DNA of 63,942 nucleotides, the filler included, from Caldilineae bacterium (lineage in GTDB: Bacteria; Chloroflexota; Anaerolineae; DTLA01), in assembly GCA_037446815.1 (NCBI GenBank). It is 3 parts of 3 records of this genome, joined end to end, with 100 filler letters (N's around TTAATTAATTAA, not from the genome) between each part and the next. Parts side by side here need not be neighbours in the genome. Positions count along the whole stretch, not along the records: positions 1 to 28,885 come from JBBIHX010000025.1; 2 more parts are not named here. One strand, 5' to 3'. The position numbers are program-made. Positions 21,601 through 27,600 of this stretch are shown one piece after another. Position 1 is the first letter of the stretch. Each line of letters starts with the position of its first letter.

Positions 21601-24600
21601 GGGCTGACCGCCCGCAGGGCTTTGTGCCCTCAGCCCGATGCTTCAGCGTCGGGCGGCCCCACCCTTTGCCCAATCCGTGCCATCCGCGTCATCCGTGGAG
21701 GGACAACGTGCGTCGCGCGTCATCGCTACAGGTATAACTCCGGCCGCAGACCCTGGGCCACGGGCAGCCGCCGCCGCGCCTTGGCTACCTCGCCAATGTC
21801 CACATCGGCGCGCAGGATTTCTTCCCCCTCGCCCGCCTCGGCCACGCGCTCGCCCCACGGCGAGGTAATCACCGAGCGCCCCGCCAGCGCCTCGCCGTTG
21901 CACAGGCCCACGCCATTGGCCCCGATGAGGAAGGCCAGGCTTTGCAGCGCCGTCGCCACGGTCAGGGTGCGCCAGTGCTCCCCCCGCGTCCGCGGCCACT
22001 GGGCGGCGACGAGCAGGAGTTCCGCCCCTTCGGCCATCATGCGCTGGAACAGGCCGGGGAAGCGCAGGTCATAGCAGATGGCGAGGCCCACGCGCCCGAG
22101 GCCCGTGGGCACGACGACAACCTCGCCGCCGGGGGTGAAGTAGGCCGGCTCGGCGAGCAGGGGAATCAGGTGCGCCTTGCGGTAGCGCGCCAGAAGTCTC
22201 CCCTCGGGCCCGGCCAGCGCCAGCGTGTTGTAGAACCGCTCGCCGTCGCGCTCGGCCATGCCCCAGGCCAGGTAGGCGCGGTACCGCGCGGCCAGGCCCG
22301 CCATCGTCGCGGTCGTTTCGCCGTCCATCGGCTCGGCCAGGGCAGGCAGGTTGGGCAGGTCATAGCCGCAGGTGGCGAGTTCCGGCAACACCACCACCTG
22401 CGCGCCCTCGTCCAAAGCCTGCCGCGCCAATTCGGCCATGCGGCGGCGGTTGCGGGCCAGGTCGCCCGCGGCAATCTCCATTTGCGCCGCGGCAACCCGA
22501 ACAACGGGCATAGTCCCCGCCTCCTCTCCAAGAACCGAGGCCAGGCCACAGGGGCAGCGCAGGTCGGCCCGCGCCCTGTGGCCCGTCGGTGCTACGGCGC
22601 GTACCGGAACGGATGCCGCGCCGCCTCTTTCTCCGCGACCAGTTCCTCGTAGGTCGGGCGGCCTTCCAGCGCCTTGCGAACCGCCGCCTTCATCGCCTTG
22701 AAGTTGTTGATGCGGACGCGGAAGCGGTTGCTGGCGCCCGGATGCACGAACACATTCGCGATGAGCACGATGTCGTCCAGCAGCGCCGCCGGCAGCGTGC
22801 CGTCCTTGACCAGCGCCTCCAGGGCCATGACAACGCCGCTCGCGGCGTGCTCGTACACGTTCTCGGCCTGGCGCTTCGTGCGCACCGTTACCGTGGGCAC
22901 GAGCAGCGTTCGCGGGCGCTCAAAGATGACACGCAGTTCGTGGCCCGGGCGCGGCTCGGCCAACGCCCGCGCGATGGCCTTCCCCACCGGGCCATCCTTG
23001 CGGCCGATGAGCAGGTCAATGTGGGCCAGTTCCGAGAACGGCGGGCCGGCGAACCCCTCGCCCACGAGGAGTGTCATGTCCCGCACCTCGCTCGGGGCGG
23101 CGGGCGGCTTTGGGAACTGGCTCGTTGCCGTCGGGCCGCCCGGGTACAGGTGGTACGTCATGGGGCGCGGCGGAATCTTGCCCAACTCCTCCAGGACGCC
23201 GCGCACCTCCTCGTAGTCCTCGCGGCGGAAGGCGTCGCCCTTCATCATGGGGTGGCGCGAATCGCCGATGGGAAGCCCCAGCAGTTGCAGCGCCTCCTTG
23301 ACCGCCTGGGTCGGGCCTTGCCGAGCCAGGATGCGGACGAATCGCTGGATGCGCGCCATGAGCGTCTGCGCCGTCGCCAGGTCGCCCGACAGGACGGCCT
23401 TGTAGATGGTCTGCCACACGTCGGGGATGACGTTGGCGCTGGCGAGGATGGCGCCGTCGGCCCCCATGGCCAACGCCGCCGGCACGATTTCGTCGTGGCC
23501 GGTGAAGATGCCGATCTTGCCGCGCACCTTCTCAAACACCGCCATCAGGTAGGGCATGTCGCCGCTGGAATCCTTGATGCCGACGACGTTCTCCAGATAG
23601 GCCATGCCCTCGGTCGTCCACCATTGATAATGGGTGCCCGCGCACTGGGGGATGTTGTACAGGATGAGCGGCACGCCCAGTTTGTTCAGCGCATCGTAGT
23701 GATCGTACACCTCGTTGAACGAAGGCTTCAGGTAGTAGGGCGCGGCAACCAGGGCAGCGGTAACGCCGGCATCCCGCGCCCACGCCGTCATCTTCACGGT
23801 CTCGCGGGTGGACGGGTAGGCGGTACCGGCGACGACCGGCACGCGCCCGTTGACCTCATCCAGGGCGATTTCAATGGCCCGCTTGCGCTCGTCCTCCAGC
23901 ATGTACACGAACTCGCCCGTGGTGCCGCAGGGGACGATGCCGTTGACATGGGGCAGGACGTAGCGGATGAGTTCTCGGTAGGCGGCCTCATCCACGCGGT
24001 CGTCCTTGGTGAAGGGCGTAACCAGGGCGGGGAAGATTCCTTTGAACCAGTCGGGTTTCTTGGACATGGGTCTCTCCTTCTACCTGATGTGCCTCACGCG
24101 CCGAATGCCTGGCGGATGGCAGCGCCTGCCGCGGCAAGCACCGCCTGGTACAGGGCGTGGCGATCCAGGGCCTTGGGATGCACGCTGGCCTGCACCAGCA
24201 TCACGTGCGTGTCCATGGCGGATTTGGGAATGACGCCCTCTTCCAGCGCGTCTACGATGGCGCGGGCTACTGCTGCCTGGGTCGGGCCGTAAATCATGTT
24301 GGCCTGGCGCAGGTTCCGCAGTTCCGCCGTCGGGACGATGAGCGTGGACGGTCGCACGGTGAGATTCGGCTCCAGGATGGTGGTCAGCGCCTCGTAGCCG
24401 TGGCGCGGGTAGGTGAGTTGCAGGGCGAACACTTCGCCGACGATGCCGTCCTTCGGCCCGGCGATGAGGTCTACTTGGACGTTTTCCGGCTCGGCGCCCG
24501 CCGCTCCGGTACCCACGCGCAGCGACTCTGCCCGCACCTGCTGGGGCGAGATGCCCAGCGCGCCGAACCGCTCGGCGACAGGCCCGGTCGGCGGCGCATA

Positions 24601-27600
24601 GGCGCTGTCTTCGGAGTCAATCTTGCCCAGGCGCTCCAGTTCCAACTGAATCTCGGCCCGGTCCTCGTGGGTGAGGCTTCCGCCCACCTTCAGCGGTCGC
24701 CGCGCCTGGCCCACGGGAATCCCCATCATGTTCAGCGCCTGCTTGACGGCCAGCCCGCCCCCGTAGCGGCAGAAGATGCGCGACAGTTTCTGCACGCTCC
24801 GTTGCAGGGCGCGGGCCTCCTCAATGCGGCCCTCCTGGACGGCGGCGTAGACCTTCTGCCACACCTCGGGGTAAACGTTGGCGCTGGCCAGAATCATGCC
24901 GGTGCACCCGCCCGCCAGCGCAGGCAGCACCACCTCGTCGTGGCCGATGAACACGTCAATGCGCCCCTGCACCATCTCCAAGATTTCCATGGTGTAGGTG
25001 AGGTTGCCCGATGAGTCCTTGATGCCCACGATGTTCGGGATCTCCGATAGGTCCTCCACGACGTTGCGCGGCAGGTAGGCGTCCACCACCTGCGGGATGT
25101 TGTACAGCAGGATGGGGAGGTCCACCGCCATCGCCACATCGTAGAAATGCTGGTAGATGCCCTTGTCGGACGGGTGGAGGAAGAAGGGCGTAACGACAAG
25201 GCAGGCGTTGGCTCCGGCATCTTTCGCGTTGCGGGCCAGGAGAATCGTCTCCTTGGTGCCGGCGGCGCCCGTTCCGGCGATGACCGGCTTGCGGCCCGCG
25301 ACTTCGTCCACGACGATGGAGATGACGCGCTTCTGCTCGTCGGGCGTCATGTACGGGAACTCGCCCGTGGTGCCGCAGGGGACAAACCCGTCCACATGGG
25401 GCAGGAGGTGGCGCACCAACGCGCGCAGCGCCGATTCGTCCACCTCTTCGTCTTTGGTAAATGGCGTTACCAGCGCGGGGAAGACGCCCCGCAGCCACGG
25501 CAGTTTTGCAGGCATTCAACAACCTCCGTAGTAGGGTTCGCGGGACGCGCGGGCCAGCACCGCCGCCCCATGCGGTCGGCAGCGCCGGAATCCCGCGCGC
25601 TCCTTGCGGATGACTTGTGCCGGGTTACGGCTTCGGGATGGCCAGGCCCTTGCAGCCCTGCTTGGAGAGGATGAGGTCGGGCTGGTTCTCCTGAATCAGG
25701 GTGTGGATAATCTCGGCGTACTTCACCTTCTCGCGGGCGAAGTCGGCGAGGGCCTGCGGGCTGGTCCACGGCTTGTACAGCGCCCCAGGCCCGGCGGCGC
25801 AGGCCGGCCCAGGCTCTATCTTGAAGTAGCACGGCGCGCAAACCCGCGCCATCTCGGCCCCGTCGTAGAACCGATTGTACCCGCCAAAGGACTCGGCCAG
25901 ATAGATGTGCAGGTCCATCGGGATGTCCACCGCCTGGCGGATGGAGGCCAGTTGCGGCAGGCTCAGGTCGCCGACGGGGTTGAACGTCCCCGCGCCCAGC
26001 GACTGGAGCACCTTGCCGCCGGCGGCCGAGGCGTGCCCCGCGTAGATGGAAACCTTGAACGTTACGTCCTCCGGAATCTCCCCGGCCTTGCGGAGTTCGT
26101 TCAGGAGCCAGAGGAGGCCCTCATCAATCACGAGAAAGCCGCGGAAGCCGATCTCAATGCACGTGAGAATGTCGGTGATGACGTAGCGGAGTTGATCGGA
26201 GCCGCGGAAGCGGAGGCCGGAGAGGCCGCCCTCGGGCGTTACCACTTGCCGACCCACATCCCACGCCGCACGCGGCCCAGGGGTGAGAATGACCTCCAAC
26301 TTGTTCTCGGCGGCGATTTGGGCGAAATCGCGGAGTTCCGCCCGATCCAGGAGCGTGGCGCCCATGACTACGGAGATGACACGGTGGATGGGGATTTTGC
26401 GCCGGTTCATCTCATCAACAAGCGCTTCCAGAACGTTGGGGCGCTCCACGCCGGAGATCTCCATGCGGTAGTGGGCGCCATCGGGGAAGCGCTTGGGGCT
26501 AGATGGAAGGTCGTAGGCGTCCCGTCCGGGGATGCCCACCCGCTCCATCATCTTGGCGACGCGATCCATATTCATTTGTCAACCCTCCTTCGCAATATTG
26601 ACTGGCCTCTTTGCCGCAAATTCCCGCGGAGGTAAGGAAAAGGAACACAACGTTCGGGCGCAGTATACCATGCCCGATGGGGTGTGTCAATCTGAATAGG
26701 TGGGGGTGGCGTGCGCGGTTCCAAAGTCTGTTGGCATCTACCGTCATTCTGAGCGGCGAAGCCGCGAAGAATCTCGCTGCCCGAGATGCTTCGCCTTCGG
26801 CTCAGCATGACAGAGTGGGGAGGCGGCGCGCGGGGCAGACCAACACAAGATGGAACCGAATCAGGTGGGGGGGTGGCGTGCGCGGTTCTATTCTGTGTCG
26901 GTGAGCAAGGTGCGACGCACTTCCGGAAGTGCGTCGCACCTGTAAGAACCGCACCGATGCGCTACGCAGCATACCATGGGGGCGAGGGGTGTCAATCCGC
27001 GATGCGCGGGGCAGCACCAGAACCGCGAATAACACGAATCCACGCGAATGGGGAACGTGCGATGCACCTCCGAGGTGCGTCGCACGTTGTCTACCCACGG
27101 ATGACACGGATTGCACGGGTGGCGCGCATAGATGCCGTTCGGGTTCACGGCGCACCCGAAGTGGATTCGGTTCCAAAGTCCGTTGGTACCCGTCATTGCG
27201 AGGGCACGCAGTGCCCGAAGCAATCCCCGGGGCGTGGGATTGCTTCGCTTCGCTCGCAATGACACACGAGGCGAGTGCGCCTACGGTTCACCAACACAAA
27301 ATGGAACCGAATCCCGAAGCGGCAACCTGTCCGCACGCAGAGGCTATTTGCTGGCGTTTCGGCTCTGTACCCACGCGGCGATGTCGTCCACCACCTCGCG
27401 GGCGACGTTGCCAGCCACGTCATATTCGGCCGGATTGGGCGCGCCGCTCCCCGGCATGAACAGGTGGTTGAGATTGGGGTAGGACTTGAACTGCACGTCG
27501 CCGCGCTGCCCAAGCCCCGCCTGCCACGCGGCGAAGTTCTCCATGGTAACCTGGTAATCCCGCTCGCCCTGCAAGATGAGCATGGGCATCGCCAGCGACC

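What a model noticed while it worked through the whole genome (the two positions that open the first line are those of the whole stretch)
22592..26575. Tandem DHDPS-type aldolase::formaldehyde-activating-enzyme fusions with a conserved new TIM-barrel partner
Two adjacent genes (g00866, g00867) each fuse a full DHDPS/DapA-family class-I pyruvate aldolase domain to a full formaldehyde-activating enzyme (Fae) domain, and a 316-residue protein of no known family (g00868), predicted to be a TIM barrel remotely like class II aldolases and U32 proteins, sits just upstream in most relatives. I read the trio as a formaldehyde-channelling module, the bacterial counterpart of the archaeal Fae-Hps fusion: the aldolase domain splits (or makes) a 4-hydroxy-2-oxo acid such as 4-hydroxy-2-oxobutanoate into pyruvate plus formaldehyde and the fused Fae domain passes the formaldehyde to a pterin (here tetrahydrofolate, since no H4MPT genes are seen). 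That would be [...]
Evidence so far: pfam.tsv: g00866 DHDPS 8-278 (E 8e-72) + Fae 335-487 (E 8e-35, model 1-158 of 159); g00867 DHDPS 8-289 + Fae 335-471; NCBIfam TIGR03126 fae covers 99% / 87% of the model. They are the only DHDPS and the only Fae genes in the gene table, and no DapB, DapF, LysA or H4MPT-pathway family is in the tables, while FolD, FTHFS, MTHFR are. In an alignment of 22 orthologues the Schiff-base Lys motif (GIKDSSG), GTTGE and YNIP are invariant but the position after YNIPQ that is the aspartate-semialdehyde-binding Arg in E. coli DapA (recalled) is an invariant Cys, so it is not DapA. find_homologous_proteins: 120 of 120 listed hits (62-98% id, ~470-499 aa) carry PF00701+PF08714 on one chain; named ones are [...]
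(Added by a program. Inside this text positions count along the whole contig: they may not be those of the stretch shown here. "Call 12" and the like, gene names such as g00115 and contig names such as C1 are that model's own, and its searches are not shown. The text may have been shortened before it was handed on; [...] marks where a part breaks off. The agent that wrote the report below was given it as the finding of a first reader that could run no searches.)

Follow-up and report, generated by a model that had tools for sequence, protein, structure and literature searches.

The report
Paired aldolase–formaldehyde-enzyme fusion genes
Two neighbouring genes each join a pyruvate-type aldolase to a formaldehyde-activating domain, a widespread but undescribed enzyme of sediment archaea and bacteria that probably links pyruvate with one-carbon metabolism and is routinely mislabelled as a lysine-pathway enzyme.

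Summary
On the minus strand lie a 316-aa protein with no Pfam family (U, 25625-26575) and two DHDPS::Fae fusions (FusB 24094-25515, FusA 22592-24067). They are the genome's only DHDPS and Fae genes.

They are not DapA. The aspartate-semialdehyde Arg is Cys or Val. DapF and LysA were found in 0 of 5 genomes of the genus.

New here:
- The single-copy form belongs to Bathyarchaeia and carries an almost canonical Fae domain.
- The bacterial pair comes from one old duplication with reciprocal losses. FusA keeps Fae His22, the C-terminal arm and Tyr107. FusB keeps Gln88.
- No H4MPT marker was found in the genus.
- U is a divergent U32-like TIM barrel. It sits next to the fusion in 26 of 35 judgeable loci, but elsewhere next to PanB, SHMT, or AOR-aminotransferase-homoserine dehydrogenase. 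Fusions also occur without U.
- The window's downstream "aminotransferase" and "isomerase-like" genes are SufS-like and Nfo.

Best reading (0.45): a 2-oxoacid/formaldehyde aldolase coupled to a pterin. The substrate and direction are inferred, not shown.

The parts
25625..26575 (-). U (P0003, 316 aa): divergent U32-like TIM-barrel protein, first gene of the unit
   Evidence: No Pfam or NCBIfam hit. AF2 model pLDDT 95, eight-stranded barrel. 27 of 35 diverse relatives weakly match PF01136, best E 2.4e-8. Foldseek top hit is U32 Mk0906, followed by class II aldolases. Archaeal orthologues are 65-68% identical.
24094..25515 (-). FusB (P0002, 473 aa): DHDPS-family aldolase domain fused to a C-terminally shortened Fae domain. 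The His22 equivalent is Gln, Gln88 is kept and the Tyr107 equivalent is Phe.
24649..25494 (-). FusB DHDPS domain
   Evidence: PF00701 match 7.3e-74
24100..24513 (-). FusB Fae domain (model positions 2-139 of 159)
   Evidence: PF08714 match 1.9e-36
22592..24067 (-). FusA (P0001, 491 aa): DHDPS-family aldolase domain, beta-hairpin linker, full Fae domain. His22, the C-terminal HPFRYAP arm and Tyr107 are kept. Gln88 is lost.
23231..24046 (-). FusA DHDPS domain (Schiff-base Lys in GIKDSSG, residue 165)
   Evidence: PF00701 match 1.3e-71; motif positions
22607..23065 (-). FusA Fae domain (model positions 1-158 of 159)
   Evidence: PF08714 match 6.6e-35. Aligned to solved Fae 1y5y, E 5.7e-21.
26662..26690 (-). 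Promoter-like site TTGACA-17-TATACT with TG extension, about 87 nt upstream of the U start
   Evidence: 11 of 12 matches. 2 sites found in 6 kb against 0.5 expected. None lies between U, FusB and FusA.
26968..26995 (-). Second promoter-like site (TTGACA-16-TATGCT) in a duplicated upstream module
21726..22511 (-). CN-hydrolase gene 80 nt downstream. Probably co-transcribed, conserved only in close relatives, not counted as part of the module.
   Evidence: PF00795 1.6e-55; no NCBIfam equivalog reached. Follows U directly, without the fusions, in L022.

Best explanation
FusA and FusB are two diverged copies of a bifunctional enzyme. Its N-terminal half is a class I (Schiff-base lysine) 2-oxoacid aldolase of the DHDPS/NAL family that has lost the aspartate-semialdehyde site. 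Its C-terminal half is a formaldehyde-activating (Fae) domain.

The most likely chemistry is a reversible aldol reaction between enzyme-bound pyruvate (or a close 2-oxoacid) and formaldehyde, giving a 4-hydroxy-2-oxoacid such as 4-hydroxy-2-oxobutanoate. The fused Fae ring would take the formaldehyde from, or hand it to, a reduced pterin. That pterin would be H4MPT in the archaeal single-copy form. In this bacterium it would be tetrahydrofolate or none.

In bacteria one ancient duplication produced a more complete subunit (FusA) and a partly degenerate one (FusB). They probably work as a hetero-oligomer. U is a separate, very conserved TIM-barrel enzyme of one-carbon-linked metabolism that often, but not always, accompanies the fusion. 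I guess it is a metal-dependent lyase or aldolase acting on the same kind of 4-hydroxy-2-oxoacid.

Shown: domain make-up, motif states, distribution, pathway absences. Inferred: substrate, direction, pterin, hetero-oligomer, role of U.
For: - Domains and catalytic motifs: Lys, the Tyr133 equivalent and the Thr44 equivalent are kept in 58-59 of 59 fusion proteins.
- The Arg138 equivalent is replaced by Cys, Val or Ala, which leaves room for a small uncharged aldehyde.
- The fusion is fixed: 120 of 120 top homologues of P0001 and 120 of 120 of the archaeal form carry both domains.
- The archaeal single form keeps both Fae markers (AHIDL and GPAQ) and scores 204.8 bits on PF08714.
- About 46 residues of the Fae half are invariant across FusA and archaeal proteins, a share at least as high as in the aldolase half. 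The domain is therefore under selection.
- The losses are reciprocal and conserved. His22 is kept in 17 of 17 FusA-type proteins and replaced in 14 of 15 FusB-type proteins. GPxQ is kept in FusB and lost in FusA. The C-terminal arm is absent from all FusB proteins. The Tyr107 equivalent is kept in 16 of 17 FusA proteins and is Phe in 12-13 of 15 FusB proteins.
- FusA, FusB and the single form each make one split in the tree (SH-aLRT 100, 99, 100), with matching inner order in FusA and FusB.
- There is no lysine use for the product: DapF 0 of 5, LysA 0 of 5, no DapB.
- A folate C1 route is present: FolD, FTHFS, SHMT.
- U orthologues lie beside other methylene-pterin or C1 enzymes: PanB in L020, L021, L024, L026 and G025; MTHFR C-terminal domain in L021; SHMT in L069; GcvH in L093. 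They also lie beside aminotransferase + homoserine dehydrogenase + aldehyde:ferredoxin oxidoreductase.
- An aspartate-type aminotransferase lies near the archaeal fusion-U pair in L038 and L040-L042.
- One promoter-like site precedes U, and there is no terminator-like site inside the unit.
- Precedent, known biochemistry recalled: the archaeal Fae-Hps fusion couples a formaldehyde-releasing lyase to Fae.
Against: - No assay exists. Pyruvate and formaldehyde are deduced from family chemistry only.
- Fae is known to act on H4MPT (review passages). This genus shows no MCH or beta-RFAP synthase.
- Each bacterial Fae domain lacks one residue that I recall (Acharya et al. 2005, not seen here) as important, and each scores only about 120 bits. 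The Fae chemistry may therefore be weakened or changed here.
- The genome has the ordinary route to homoserine (aspartate kinase, ASD, homoserine dehydrogenase), so there is no evident need for a new one.
- U and the fusion are not strictly linked. G002 and G015 have fusions but no U orthologue. Family f27 has U but no Fae. L022 has U followed directly by the CN hydrolase.
- Neighbours beyond U are housekeeping genes.
- Whether His22 and Gln88 of one Fae site come from different chains was not checked, because no coordinates were at hand.
Confidence: 0.45

Rival explanations
1. The fusion is a non-homologous stand-in for PanB. It would be a pterin-dependent hydroxymethyltransferase that adds the methylene-pterin carbon to 2-oxoisovalerate (or another branched 2-oxoacid), and U would carry out the following step (for example reduction of the 4-hydroxy-2-oxoacid).
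For: - U orthologues pair with either the fusion or PanB, in both gene orders (L020, L021, L024, L026, G025).
- PanB was found in 0 of 5 fusion-bearing genomes tested (G000, G301, G303, G002, G015) but in 258 of 301 genomes of the phylum sample (this tally includes the unpublished G227, G173, G272 and G038).
- G025, which has U-PanB, gave no Fae match.
- PanB chemistry (methylene-pterin + 2-oxoacid) is the same kind of reaction (established biochemistry, recalled).
Against: - The fusion-bearing genomes also lack PanC (0 of 5) and the archaeal phosphopantothenate synthetase (0 of 5). They look like plain pantothenate auxotrophs.
- The U-PanB lineage f27 also lacks PanC (0 of 3), so even that pair may not serve pantothenate.
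- 43 of 301 genomes lack PanB, and most of them have no fusion.
- Known DHDPS-family enzymes use pyruvate, not a 2-oxoacid with a tertiary C3 (recalled).
- Only two or three independent lineages are involved.
Confidence: 0.12
2. The Fae half is mainly a structural module: a pentamer-forming scaffold that assembles aldolase dimers into a large particle, or a regulatory domain. The aldolase would then act on an ordinary aldehyde unrelated to formaldehyde.
For: - Each bacterial copy has lost one recalled Fae key residue, and FusB also lacks the C-terminal arm.
- No H4MPT markers in the genus.
- Fae's pentamer is rigid enough to have been used as an engineered fusion scaffold (PDB 8ub7 series, chain listing).
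- The Tyr107 equivalent is kept in FusA and the single form, which implies the usual tight aldolase dimer. Dimer plus pentamer allows closed assemblies (inference).
Against: - The archaeal single form keeps His22, Gln88 and the arm, and scores 204.8 bits.
- The losses in the bacterial pair are reciprocal and conserved across at least 9 divergent pairs rather than random.
- The Fae half is as conserved as the aldolase half.
Confidence: 0.15
3. The fusion holds two independent activities joined only for co-expression: formaldehyde detoxification by Fae, plus an unrelated DHDPS-family lyase or dehydratase, with no transfer of formaldehyde between the halves.
For: Metagenome papers read 'fae' in Bathyarchaeia as formaldehyde detoxification through the H4MPT Wood-Ljungdahl route (passages of PMC10321748). 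Some DHDPS-family members are dehydratases, not aldolases (family names).
Against: The architecture is fixed over archaea and bacteria at 44-46% identity. The bacteria keep it without any H4MPT route. No free-standing Fae or DHDPS copy exists in this genome.
Confidence: 0.1
4. The proteins are true 4-hydroxy-tetrahydrodipicolinate synthases (DapA), as most databases name them.
For: P0002 scores 230 bits on TIGR00674 dapA, above the 206.15 cut-off. The nearest solved structures are DHDPS. Aspartate kinase and ASD are present, so aspartate semialdehyde is made.
Against: - The Arg138 equivalent is absent from all 59 fusion proteins.
- P0001 scores 199.4 bits, below the cut-off.
- DapF 0 of 5, LysA 0 of 5, no DapB.
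Confidence: 0.03

Closest known systems
Archaeal Fae-Hps bifunctional enzyme (NCBIfam NF009833)
   Same: A Fae domain is fused to a lyase whose reaction releases or uses formaldehyde. It is found in H4MPT-using archaea. The fusion logic is the same.
   Different: The partner domain here is a class I DHDPS-family 2-oxoacid aldolase placed N-terminal to Fae, not a hexulose-6-phosphate synthase. NF009833 scores only 89 and 111 bits against a cut-off of 274, over the Fae part alone. The fusion also occurs in bacteria without H4MPT markers, as a diverged pair.
DapA / DHDPS (TIGR00674, PF00701)
   Same: Fold, Schiff-base Lys, Tyr133/Thr44 relay and nearest solved structures.
   Different: No Arg138, no downstream lysine pathway, an extra Fae domain, and Tyr107 lost in FusB.
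Stand-alone Fae of Methylorubrum extorquens (PDB 1y5y/1y60)
   Same: Homologous over residues 7-166, E 5.7e-21. The AHIDL motif is kept in FusA.
   Different: Fused rather than free-standing. Each bacterial copy lacks one of His22 / Gln88. The genome has no H4MPT markers.
PanB, ketopantoate hydroxymethyltransferase (PF02548)
   Same: The proposed reaction type (methylene-pterin carbon added to a 2-oxoacid) and the shared neighbour U.
   Different: Not homologous. PanB is metal-dependent, not Schiff-base. The likeness is in how it may work, not in family membership.
Promiscuous 4-hydroxy-2-oxobutanoate aldolases (RhmA/YfaU) of the synthetic homoserine cycle
   Same: The pyruvate + formaldehyde condensation proposed here (passages of review PMC8879981).
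   Different: Those are class II enzymes used artificially, and the review calls the product a non-native metabolite. Here a dedicated natural class I enzyme with its own formaldehyde-handling domain is proposed, untested.
Peptidase U32 family (PF01136; Mk0906, PDB 5d88) and class II aldolases (YdjI, FBA)
   Same: U shares the TIM-barrel fold and weak sequence signal with U32, and fold likeness with class II aldolases.
   Different: P0003 itself does not reach PF01136. No cysteine is conserved across the family. No class II aldolase sequence match was found. The structural match list is flat (Z 14.9 to 12.1 over 50 rows).

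Membership tests
DHDPS/NAL class I aldolase superfamily (PF00701) | Profile match over the gathering score, with the Schiff-base Lys and the Tyr/Thr proton relay | tested here: met
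   239.1 and 246.6 bits against 22.1. GTTGE, YNIP and KDSSG are present in both proteins.
DapA (4-hydroxy-tetrahydrodipicolinate synthase, TIGR00674) | Equivalog score over 206.15 bits | tested here: inconclusive
   P0001 199.4 bits (below the cut-off); P0002 230 bits (above).
DapA | Arg138 equivalent that binds aspartate semialdehyde (role recalled from the E. coli literature) | tested here: not met
   Cys (P0001) and Val (P0002) align with the Arg of solved DHDPS 3pud and 2vc6.
DapA | Genome carries the rest of the diaminopimelate route | tested here: not met
   DapF 0 of 5, LysA 0 of 5, and the DapB_N hit is another enzyme. Genomes are 93.6-98% complete.
Fae (PF08714 / TIGR03126) | Domain profile over the curated cut-off | tested here: met
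   PF08714 118.6 and 123.8 bits against 27. TIGR03126 130.4 and 120.4 bits against 118.05.
Fae | His22 acid catalyst and Gln88 (roles recalled from Acharya et al. 2005; paper not seen) | tested here: inconclusive
   FusA has His22 but not Gln88, FusB the reverse, and the archaeal single form has both.
Fae | Works with H4MPT, so the genome should make and use H4MPT | tested here: not met
   MCH 0 of 6 genomes. Beta-RFAP synthase 0 of 5 over cut-off. An FTR-like gene occurs in 2 of 5 genomes, in an accessory cluster that has no match in G000.
Fae | Homopentamer with sites between subunits | not testable with these tools
   No coordinates or multimer model of five chains were available.
Fae-Hps bifunctional enzyme (NF009833) | Fae plus a hexulose-6-phosphate synthase domain, score over 274 | tested here: not met
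   89.4 and 111.1 bits, over the Fae part only.
Peptidase U32 (PF01136), for U | Profile match over the gathering score | tested here: inconclusive
   P0003 has no hit at E<=0.1. 27 of 35 diverse relatives match at E<=1, best 2.4e-8. Atlas neighbour clusters carry PF01136 in 17-23% of members.
Peptidase U32 (Fe-S hydroxylase type), for U | Conserved cysteines for a 4Fe-4S cluster (recalled for UbiU/UbiV) | tested here: not met
   No Cys is among the invariant or nearly invariant columns of the 35-member alignment.
Class II (metal-dependent) aldolases, for U | Shared fold and metal-binding His/Asp/Glu set | tested here: inconclusive
   Foldseek E 5e-8 to 1e-6, TM about 0.45. VIA Z 13.5-13.7 within a flat TIM-barrel list. 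His64, His181 and His223 are invariant only among orthologues.

The most novel reading that the evidence does not exclude
The fusion is a dedicated natural enzyme that joins the Wood-Ljungdahl / folate one-carbon pool to central carbon. It would reversibly convert methylene-pterin + pyruvate into 4-hydroxy-2-oxobutanoate, which an aminotransferase turns into homoserine. This would be a natural version of the key step of the man-made 'homoserine cycle'. It would operate in Bathyarchaeia, among the most abundant sediment archaea, and in Anaerolineae, with U as a second enzyme of a new family acting on hydroxymethylated 2-oxoacids. In bacteria the enzyme would be an obligate FusA/FusB hetero-oligomer with composite Fae sites.
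Probability: 0.15. Interest if true: 0.85.

Novelty: new variant of a known kind. Interest (0 to 1): 0.68.

Why it matters
Thousands of database proteins of this architecture are named either 'DapA' or 'formaldehyde-activating enzyme'. Metabolic reconstructions of Bathyarchaeia and Anaerolineae therefore credit them with a lysine step or with plain formaldehyde detoxification (passages of PMC10321748). If the fusion is a pyruvate/formaldehyde aldolase wired to a pterin, it is a new entry or exit point of one-carbon units in very abundant anaerobes. It would also be a ready-made catalyst for synthetic C1 assimilation, where only promiscuous enzymes are used today. The reciprocal decay of the two bacterial copies is a clean case of subfunctionalisation that can be tested by structure. 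U adds a conserved, unnamed enzyme family whose neighbours point to C1 and 2-oxoacid chemistry.

Tried and rejected
- Complex prediction of FusA (alignment A3) with U (A2): score 0.00, no verdict. It says nothing on binding.
- The look-up of sequencing runs: no RNA holder listed. Only DNA contigs, and one holds at least half of the words.
- Rfam scan of 21000-28885: only two chance-level matches (E 0.84 and 0.92), so no known riboswitch lies upstream of U.
- PDB sequence search with U: nothing at E<=10.
- Idea that the window's class V 'aminotransferase', CN hydrolase and 'xylose-isomerase-like' genes form a pathway with the fusions (glutamine transaminase / omega-amidase logic): dropped. NCBIfam reads them as SufS-like (350 bits, below the cut-off), an unassigned CN hydrolase, and Nfo endonuclease IV (285 bits against 129.65). 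They follow U only in the closest relatives.
- Idea that the genome lacks the normal route to homoserine: rejected. Aspartate kinase, ASD and homoserine dehydrogenase are present.
- Idea that the genome lacks SHMT: rejected, found in 5 of 5.
- Idea that the fusion replaces PanB for pantothenate: weakened by the absence of PanC and PPS. Kept as a rival.
- The original Fae structure paper could not be found in the library. The roles of His22, Gln88 and the C-terminal arm are recalled from its abstract.
- Literature searches for the fusion found no description: 'formaldehyde-activating enzyme' + 'dihydrodipicolinate synthase' + fusion, 0 papers; Fae + DapA + formaldehyde, 0; PF08714 with PF00701, none with both; with Chloroflexi or Bathyarchaeota, only listings and passages on plain fae. 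Supplements were not read.
- A careful tree did not finish in 300 s, so the quick IQ-TREE result is reported.

Full report
WHAT IS THERE

The first 28,885 bases of the window are one contig (C25) of a 3.19-Mb, 265-contig genome that is 93.6% complete. The rest of the window is other contigs joined by N.

Three ORFs lie on the minus strand:
- 25625-26575: U, P0003, 316 aa.
- 24094-25515: FusB, P0002, 473 aa.
- 22592-24067: FusA, P0001, 491 aa.

- FusA: DHDPS 8-278 plus Fae 335-487 (model 1-158 of 159).
- FusB: DHDPS 8-289 plus Fae 335-471 (model 2-138 of 159, so the C-terminus is cut short).
- U: no family.

These are the only DHDPS and the only Fae matches in the genome. All five genomes of the organism's order (one genus) carry the same tandem pair.

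A promoter-like site (TTGACA-17-TATACT, 11 of 12 matches) lies about 87 nt upstream of U. No further promoter-like or minus-strand terminator-like site lies between U, FusB and FusA, whose gaps are 109 and 26 nt. The three genes are therefore probably one transcript, and it may run on into the CN-hydrolase gene 80 nt downstream.

NOT DapA, AND NO H4MPT

The residue after YNIPQ is Cys in FusA and Val in FusB. It aligns with the Arg of YNVPGR / YNIPGR in solved DHDPS structures. That Arg binds aspartate semialdehyde in E. coli DapA (recalled). None of the 59 fusion proteins I tabulated has it.

Evidence on the lysine pathway:
- FusA scores below the TIGR00674 cut-off and FusB above it.
- DapF and LysA were found in 0 of 5 genomes of the genus.
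- The one weak DapB_N hit is a 2,4-diaminopentanoate-dehydrogenase-like protein.

Aspartate kinase, ASD and homoserine dehydrogenase are present. Aspartate semialdehyde and homoserine are therefore made in the usual way.

Evidence on H4MPT:
- MCH was found in 0 of 6 fusion-bearing genomes.
- Beta-RFAP synthase did not reach its cut-off in any of 5 genomes.
- An FTR-like gene exists in 2 of 5 genomes of the genus. It sits in an accessory amidohydrolase-ADH-FTR-MttB cluster that has no blastn match in this genome.

FolD and FTHFS lie side by side on contig C10, and SHMT is present.

WHERE THE FUSION COMES FROM

The top 120 homologues of FusA all carry both domains and are named from Chloroflexota / Anaerolineae.

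The 80 metagenome loci fetched through U revealed a second form: a single 493-aa fusion transcribed divergently from U. Its relatives are named Bathyarchaeia or Bathyarchaeota in 8 of 9 hits that carry an organism name. Its neighbours include archaeal-type genes: PyrI, A-type ATPase subunit F and an HVO_A0261-like regulator. Its Fae domain scores 204.8 bits on PF08714, against 118.6 and 123.8 for the two bacterial copies. Published passages say that fae is widely found in Bathyarchaeia and read it as formaldehyde detoxification through the H4MPT Wood-Ljungdahl route. They do not mention a fusion (PMC10321748, passages). My searches found no paper describing the architecture.

In a sample of 301 genomes of the window's phylum, Fae matches occur in 7. 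The tandem fusion occurs in 3 of these (G000, G002, G015).

THE TWO COPIES ARE NOT EQUIVALENT

The table covers 59 fusion proteins. Eight fragments of the 67 in the cluster were left out.

| Feature | Archaeal single form | FusA type | FusB type |
|---|---|---|---|
| Fae AHIDL motif (His22) | kept | kept, 17 of 17 | His replaced by Gln, Lys or Ile in 14 of 15 |
| Fae GPxQ motif (Gln88) | kept | lost | kept |
| C-terminal HPF(K/R)Y(T/A)P arm | kept | kept | absent from all |
| PYY motif, second Tyr = Tyr107 equivalent | kept, 27 of 27 | kept, 16 of 17 | Phe in 12-13 of 15 |

Tyr107 of E. coli DHDPS reaches into the partner's active site (recalled).

I made a quick IQ-TREE of 41 rows. All FusA- and FusB-type rows were used, and 9 of the 27 single-type rows were kept to thin near-copies. 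FusA, FusB and the single form each fall on one side of a branch (SH-aLRT 100, 99, 100). The same order of lineages appears inside the FusA and FusB subtrees. The root is unknown.

I read this as one old duplication followed by complementary decay. FusA would be the more complete subunit and FusB a partner that keeps the Schiff-base machinery but has lost several Fae features. Conserved, reciprocal losses argue for a hetero-oligomer. Whether the two Fae residues meet across a subunit interface could not be checked, and their roles are recalled from the abstract of Acharya et al. 2005, which I could not retrieve.

The AF2 model of FusA (pLDDT 85.6) shows a TIM barrel (1-294), a beta-hairpin linker (301-318) and the Fae fold (333-482).

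U AND ITS COMPANY

U folds with high confidence into a TIM barrel (pLDDT 95). Its structural neighbours are U32 Mk0906, CutC and class II aldolases, within a flat list.

At the sequence level:
- 27 of 35 diverse relatives touch PF01136 weakly.
- Atlas neighbour clusters carry PF01136 in 17-23% of members.
- No cysteine is conserved across the family.
- The family has 860 representatives at E<=1e-3.

The orthologues are strikingly conserved. Archaeal copies are 65-68% identical to U, against 44-46% for the fusion.

Adjacency to the fusion:
- The fusion lies within 400 bp of U in 43 of 81 loci with a called U.
- It does so in 26 of the 35 loci that have at least 2 kb on both sides of U.

U orthologues without a fusion nearby sit beside:
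- PanB (L020, L021, L024, L026, and genome G025), once with an MTHFR C-terminal domain gene as well.
- SHMT plus a CODH-family gene (L069).
- GcvH (L093).
- An operon of aldehyde:ferredoxin oxidoreductase, aspartate-type aminotransferase and homoserine dehydrogenase (L033, L054, L084, L088, L089, L091).

Fusions without U:
- G002 and G015 carry the tandem fusions but no U orthologue. G002 has only a 37% paralogue on another contig.
- L010-L012 show fusions without U nearby.
- In L022, where U is 93% identical, U is followed directly by the CN hydrolase.

Paralogues about 40% identical to U lie in two kinds of cluster:
- Sugar-acid clusters with an MR/MLE dehydratase, an MBL-fold protein, ABC transport and aldehyde dehydrogenase.
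- An IclR-cupin-U-creatininase-ADH-AOR cluster, which is also present in this genome on C43.

This fits a lyase or aldolase acting on 2-oxo-4-hydroxy or 3-deoxy acids that yields an aldehyde, but that is a guess.

The window's own downstream genes are SufS-like, Nfo and TpiA. They are housekeeping genes, not pathway partners.

HOW IT MOST LIKELY WORKS

The only reaction that makes sense of a fixed fusion between a Schiff-base 2-oxoacid aldolase and Fae is an aldol or retro-aldol step in which the aldehyde is formaldehyde. The Fae ring would pass the formaldehyde to or from a reduced pterin. This is the same logic as the archaeal Fae-Hps enzyme.

With pyruvate as donor the product is 4-hydroxy-2-oxobutanoate, which is one transamination away from homoserine. 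Two observations fit this, but loosely:
- An aspartate-type aminotransferase recurs near the archaeal fusion-U pair.
- U lies in an operon with an aminotransferase and homoserine dehydrogenase.

In Bathyarchaeia the pterin would be H4MPT. In this bacterium the Fae domains have diverged and no H4MPT marker is seen, so the partner may be tetrahydrofolate, or the domain may only hold formaldehyde. Direction is open: release of a C1 unit from C4 acids, or its assimilation. I give this reading 0.45.

The rivals, with the evidence in the Rival explanations section, are:
- A PanB-like hydroxymethyltransferase (0.12).
- A mainly structural Fae ring (0.15).
- Two unlinked activities (0.10).
- A true DapA (0.03).

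COMPARISON AND NOVELTY

Both halves belong to known families. The architecture, its archaeal home, the paired bacterial form with reciprocal losses, and the U family are not described in the papers I could search. I rate it a new variant of a known kind, the Fae-lyase fusions. Its substrate claim is testable, and if true it would matter for C1 metabolism of very abundant anaerobes and for synthetic methylotrophy. In that field 4-hydroxy-2-oxobutanoate is still called a non-native metabolite made by promiscuous enzymes (PMC8879981, passages).

LIMITS
- All functional statements are inference.
- The loci were fetched through sequence similarity and are not independent.
- MAG incompleteness (73-98%) limits the absence claims.
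- Bathyarchaeial whole genomes could not be searched.
- The PanB tally includes four unpublished genomes (G227, G173, G272, G038).

Noticed in passing
window 26576-27343: The 768-nt region upstream of U holds a duplicated module. Each copy has a promoter-like TTGACA/TATxCT pair and MITE-like inverted repeats (25-nt arms about 100 nt apart). There are also two perfect or near-perfect 17-nt palindromes built on GGTGCGTCGCACC. A related palindrome forms the only terminator-like hit, at 21516-21531.
   Followed up: partly
G000 contig C43:9406-10296 (locus L123:9397-10311, minus strand): There is a second U-family gene (38% identical to U) in the same genome. It sits in a cluster of IclR regulator, cupin, U paralogue, creatininase-family amidohydrolase, Zn-ADH, transporter, aldehyde:ferredoxin oxidoreductase and an OYE-type flavoenzyme. 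The same order occurs in G002 (L118).
   Followed up: partly
L112, L114, L115, L116, L121 (genomes G171, G287, G073, G040, G084): U-family paralogues (37-43% identical) lie beside MR/MLE-type dehydratases, MBL-fold proteins, ABC sugar transporters and in one case an aldehyde dehydrogenase. This is the layout of a non-phosphorylative sugar-acid pathway in which the aldolase or second dehydratase is not otherwise visible.
   Followed up: partly
G025 contig C202:332-2208 (L102/L125): A U orthologue (72% identical) lies directly upstream of a strong PanB (388.6 bits). PanC was found in 0 of 3 genomes of that family and the archaeal PPS not in G025. This is a PanB without a visible pantothenate pathway.
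   Followed up: partly
L128 (G303 contig C110:5417-11428) and L129 (G304): An accessory cluster holds amidohydrolase, Zn-ADH, an FTR/FhcD-like protein (PF01913 + PF02741), an MttB-family methyltransferase and an aldo-keto reductase, with an MtmB-like gene nearby. It is present in 2 of 5 genomes of the genus and has no blastn match in the window's genome.
   Followed up: partly
L022:9001-9948 and following genes: In a relative whose U is 93% identical, U is followed directly by the CN hydrolase and the SufS-like gene, with neither fusion gene in between. This is a natural presence/absence difference of the fusion pair.
   Followed up: no
L008:7304-7789 and L012:6710-7985: Toxin-antitoxin-type genes (a PBECR2-like nuclease domain; HEPN, UPF0175, DUF3368) are inserted between FusB and FusA in two Anaerolineae relatives. 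In L008 an extra xylose-isomerase-like TIM-barrel gene sits there as well.
   Followed up: no
window 18786-20024 and 17747-18694: The Nfo endonuclease IV gene has an extra N-terminal stretch of about 125 residues. The triosephosphate isomerase gene has an extra stretch of about 60 residues before the Pfam domain. The start codons may be called too far upstream, or the extensions may be real.
   Followed up: no
G000 contig C2:56016-57254: The SHMT match lies in an open frame of 1230 aa in all five genomes of the genus. This is either a very long fusion protein or a long stop-free stretch in GC-rich DNA.
   Followed up: no
L009 (2.1-kb contig of a MAG labelled Desulfobacterales): A FusA-type fragment, 75% identical over residues 1-186, sits in a bin of another phylum. 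The cause could be gene transfer or a binning error.
   Followed up: no
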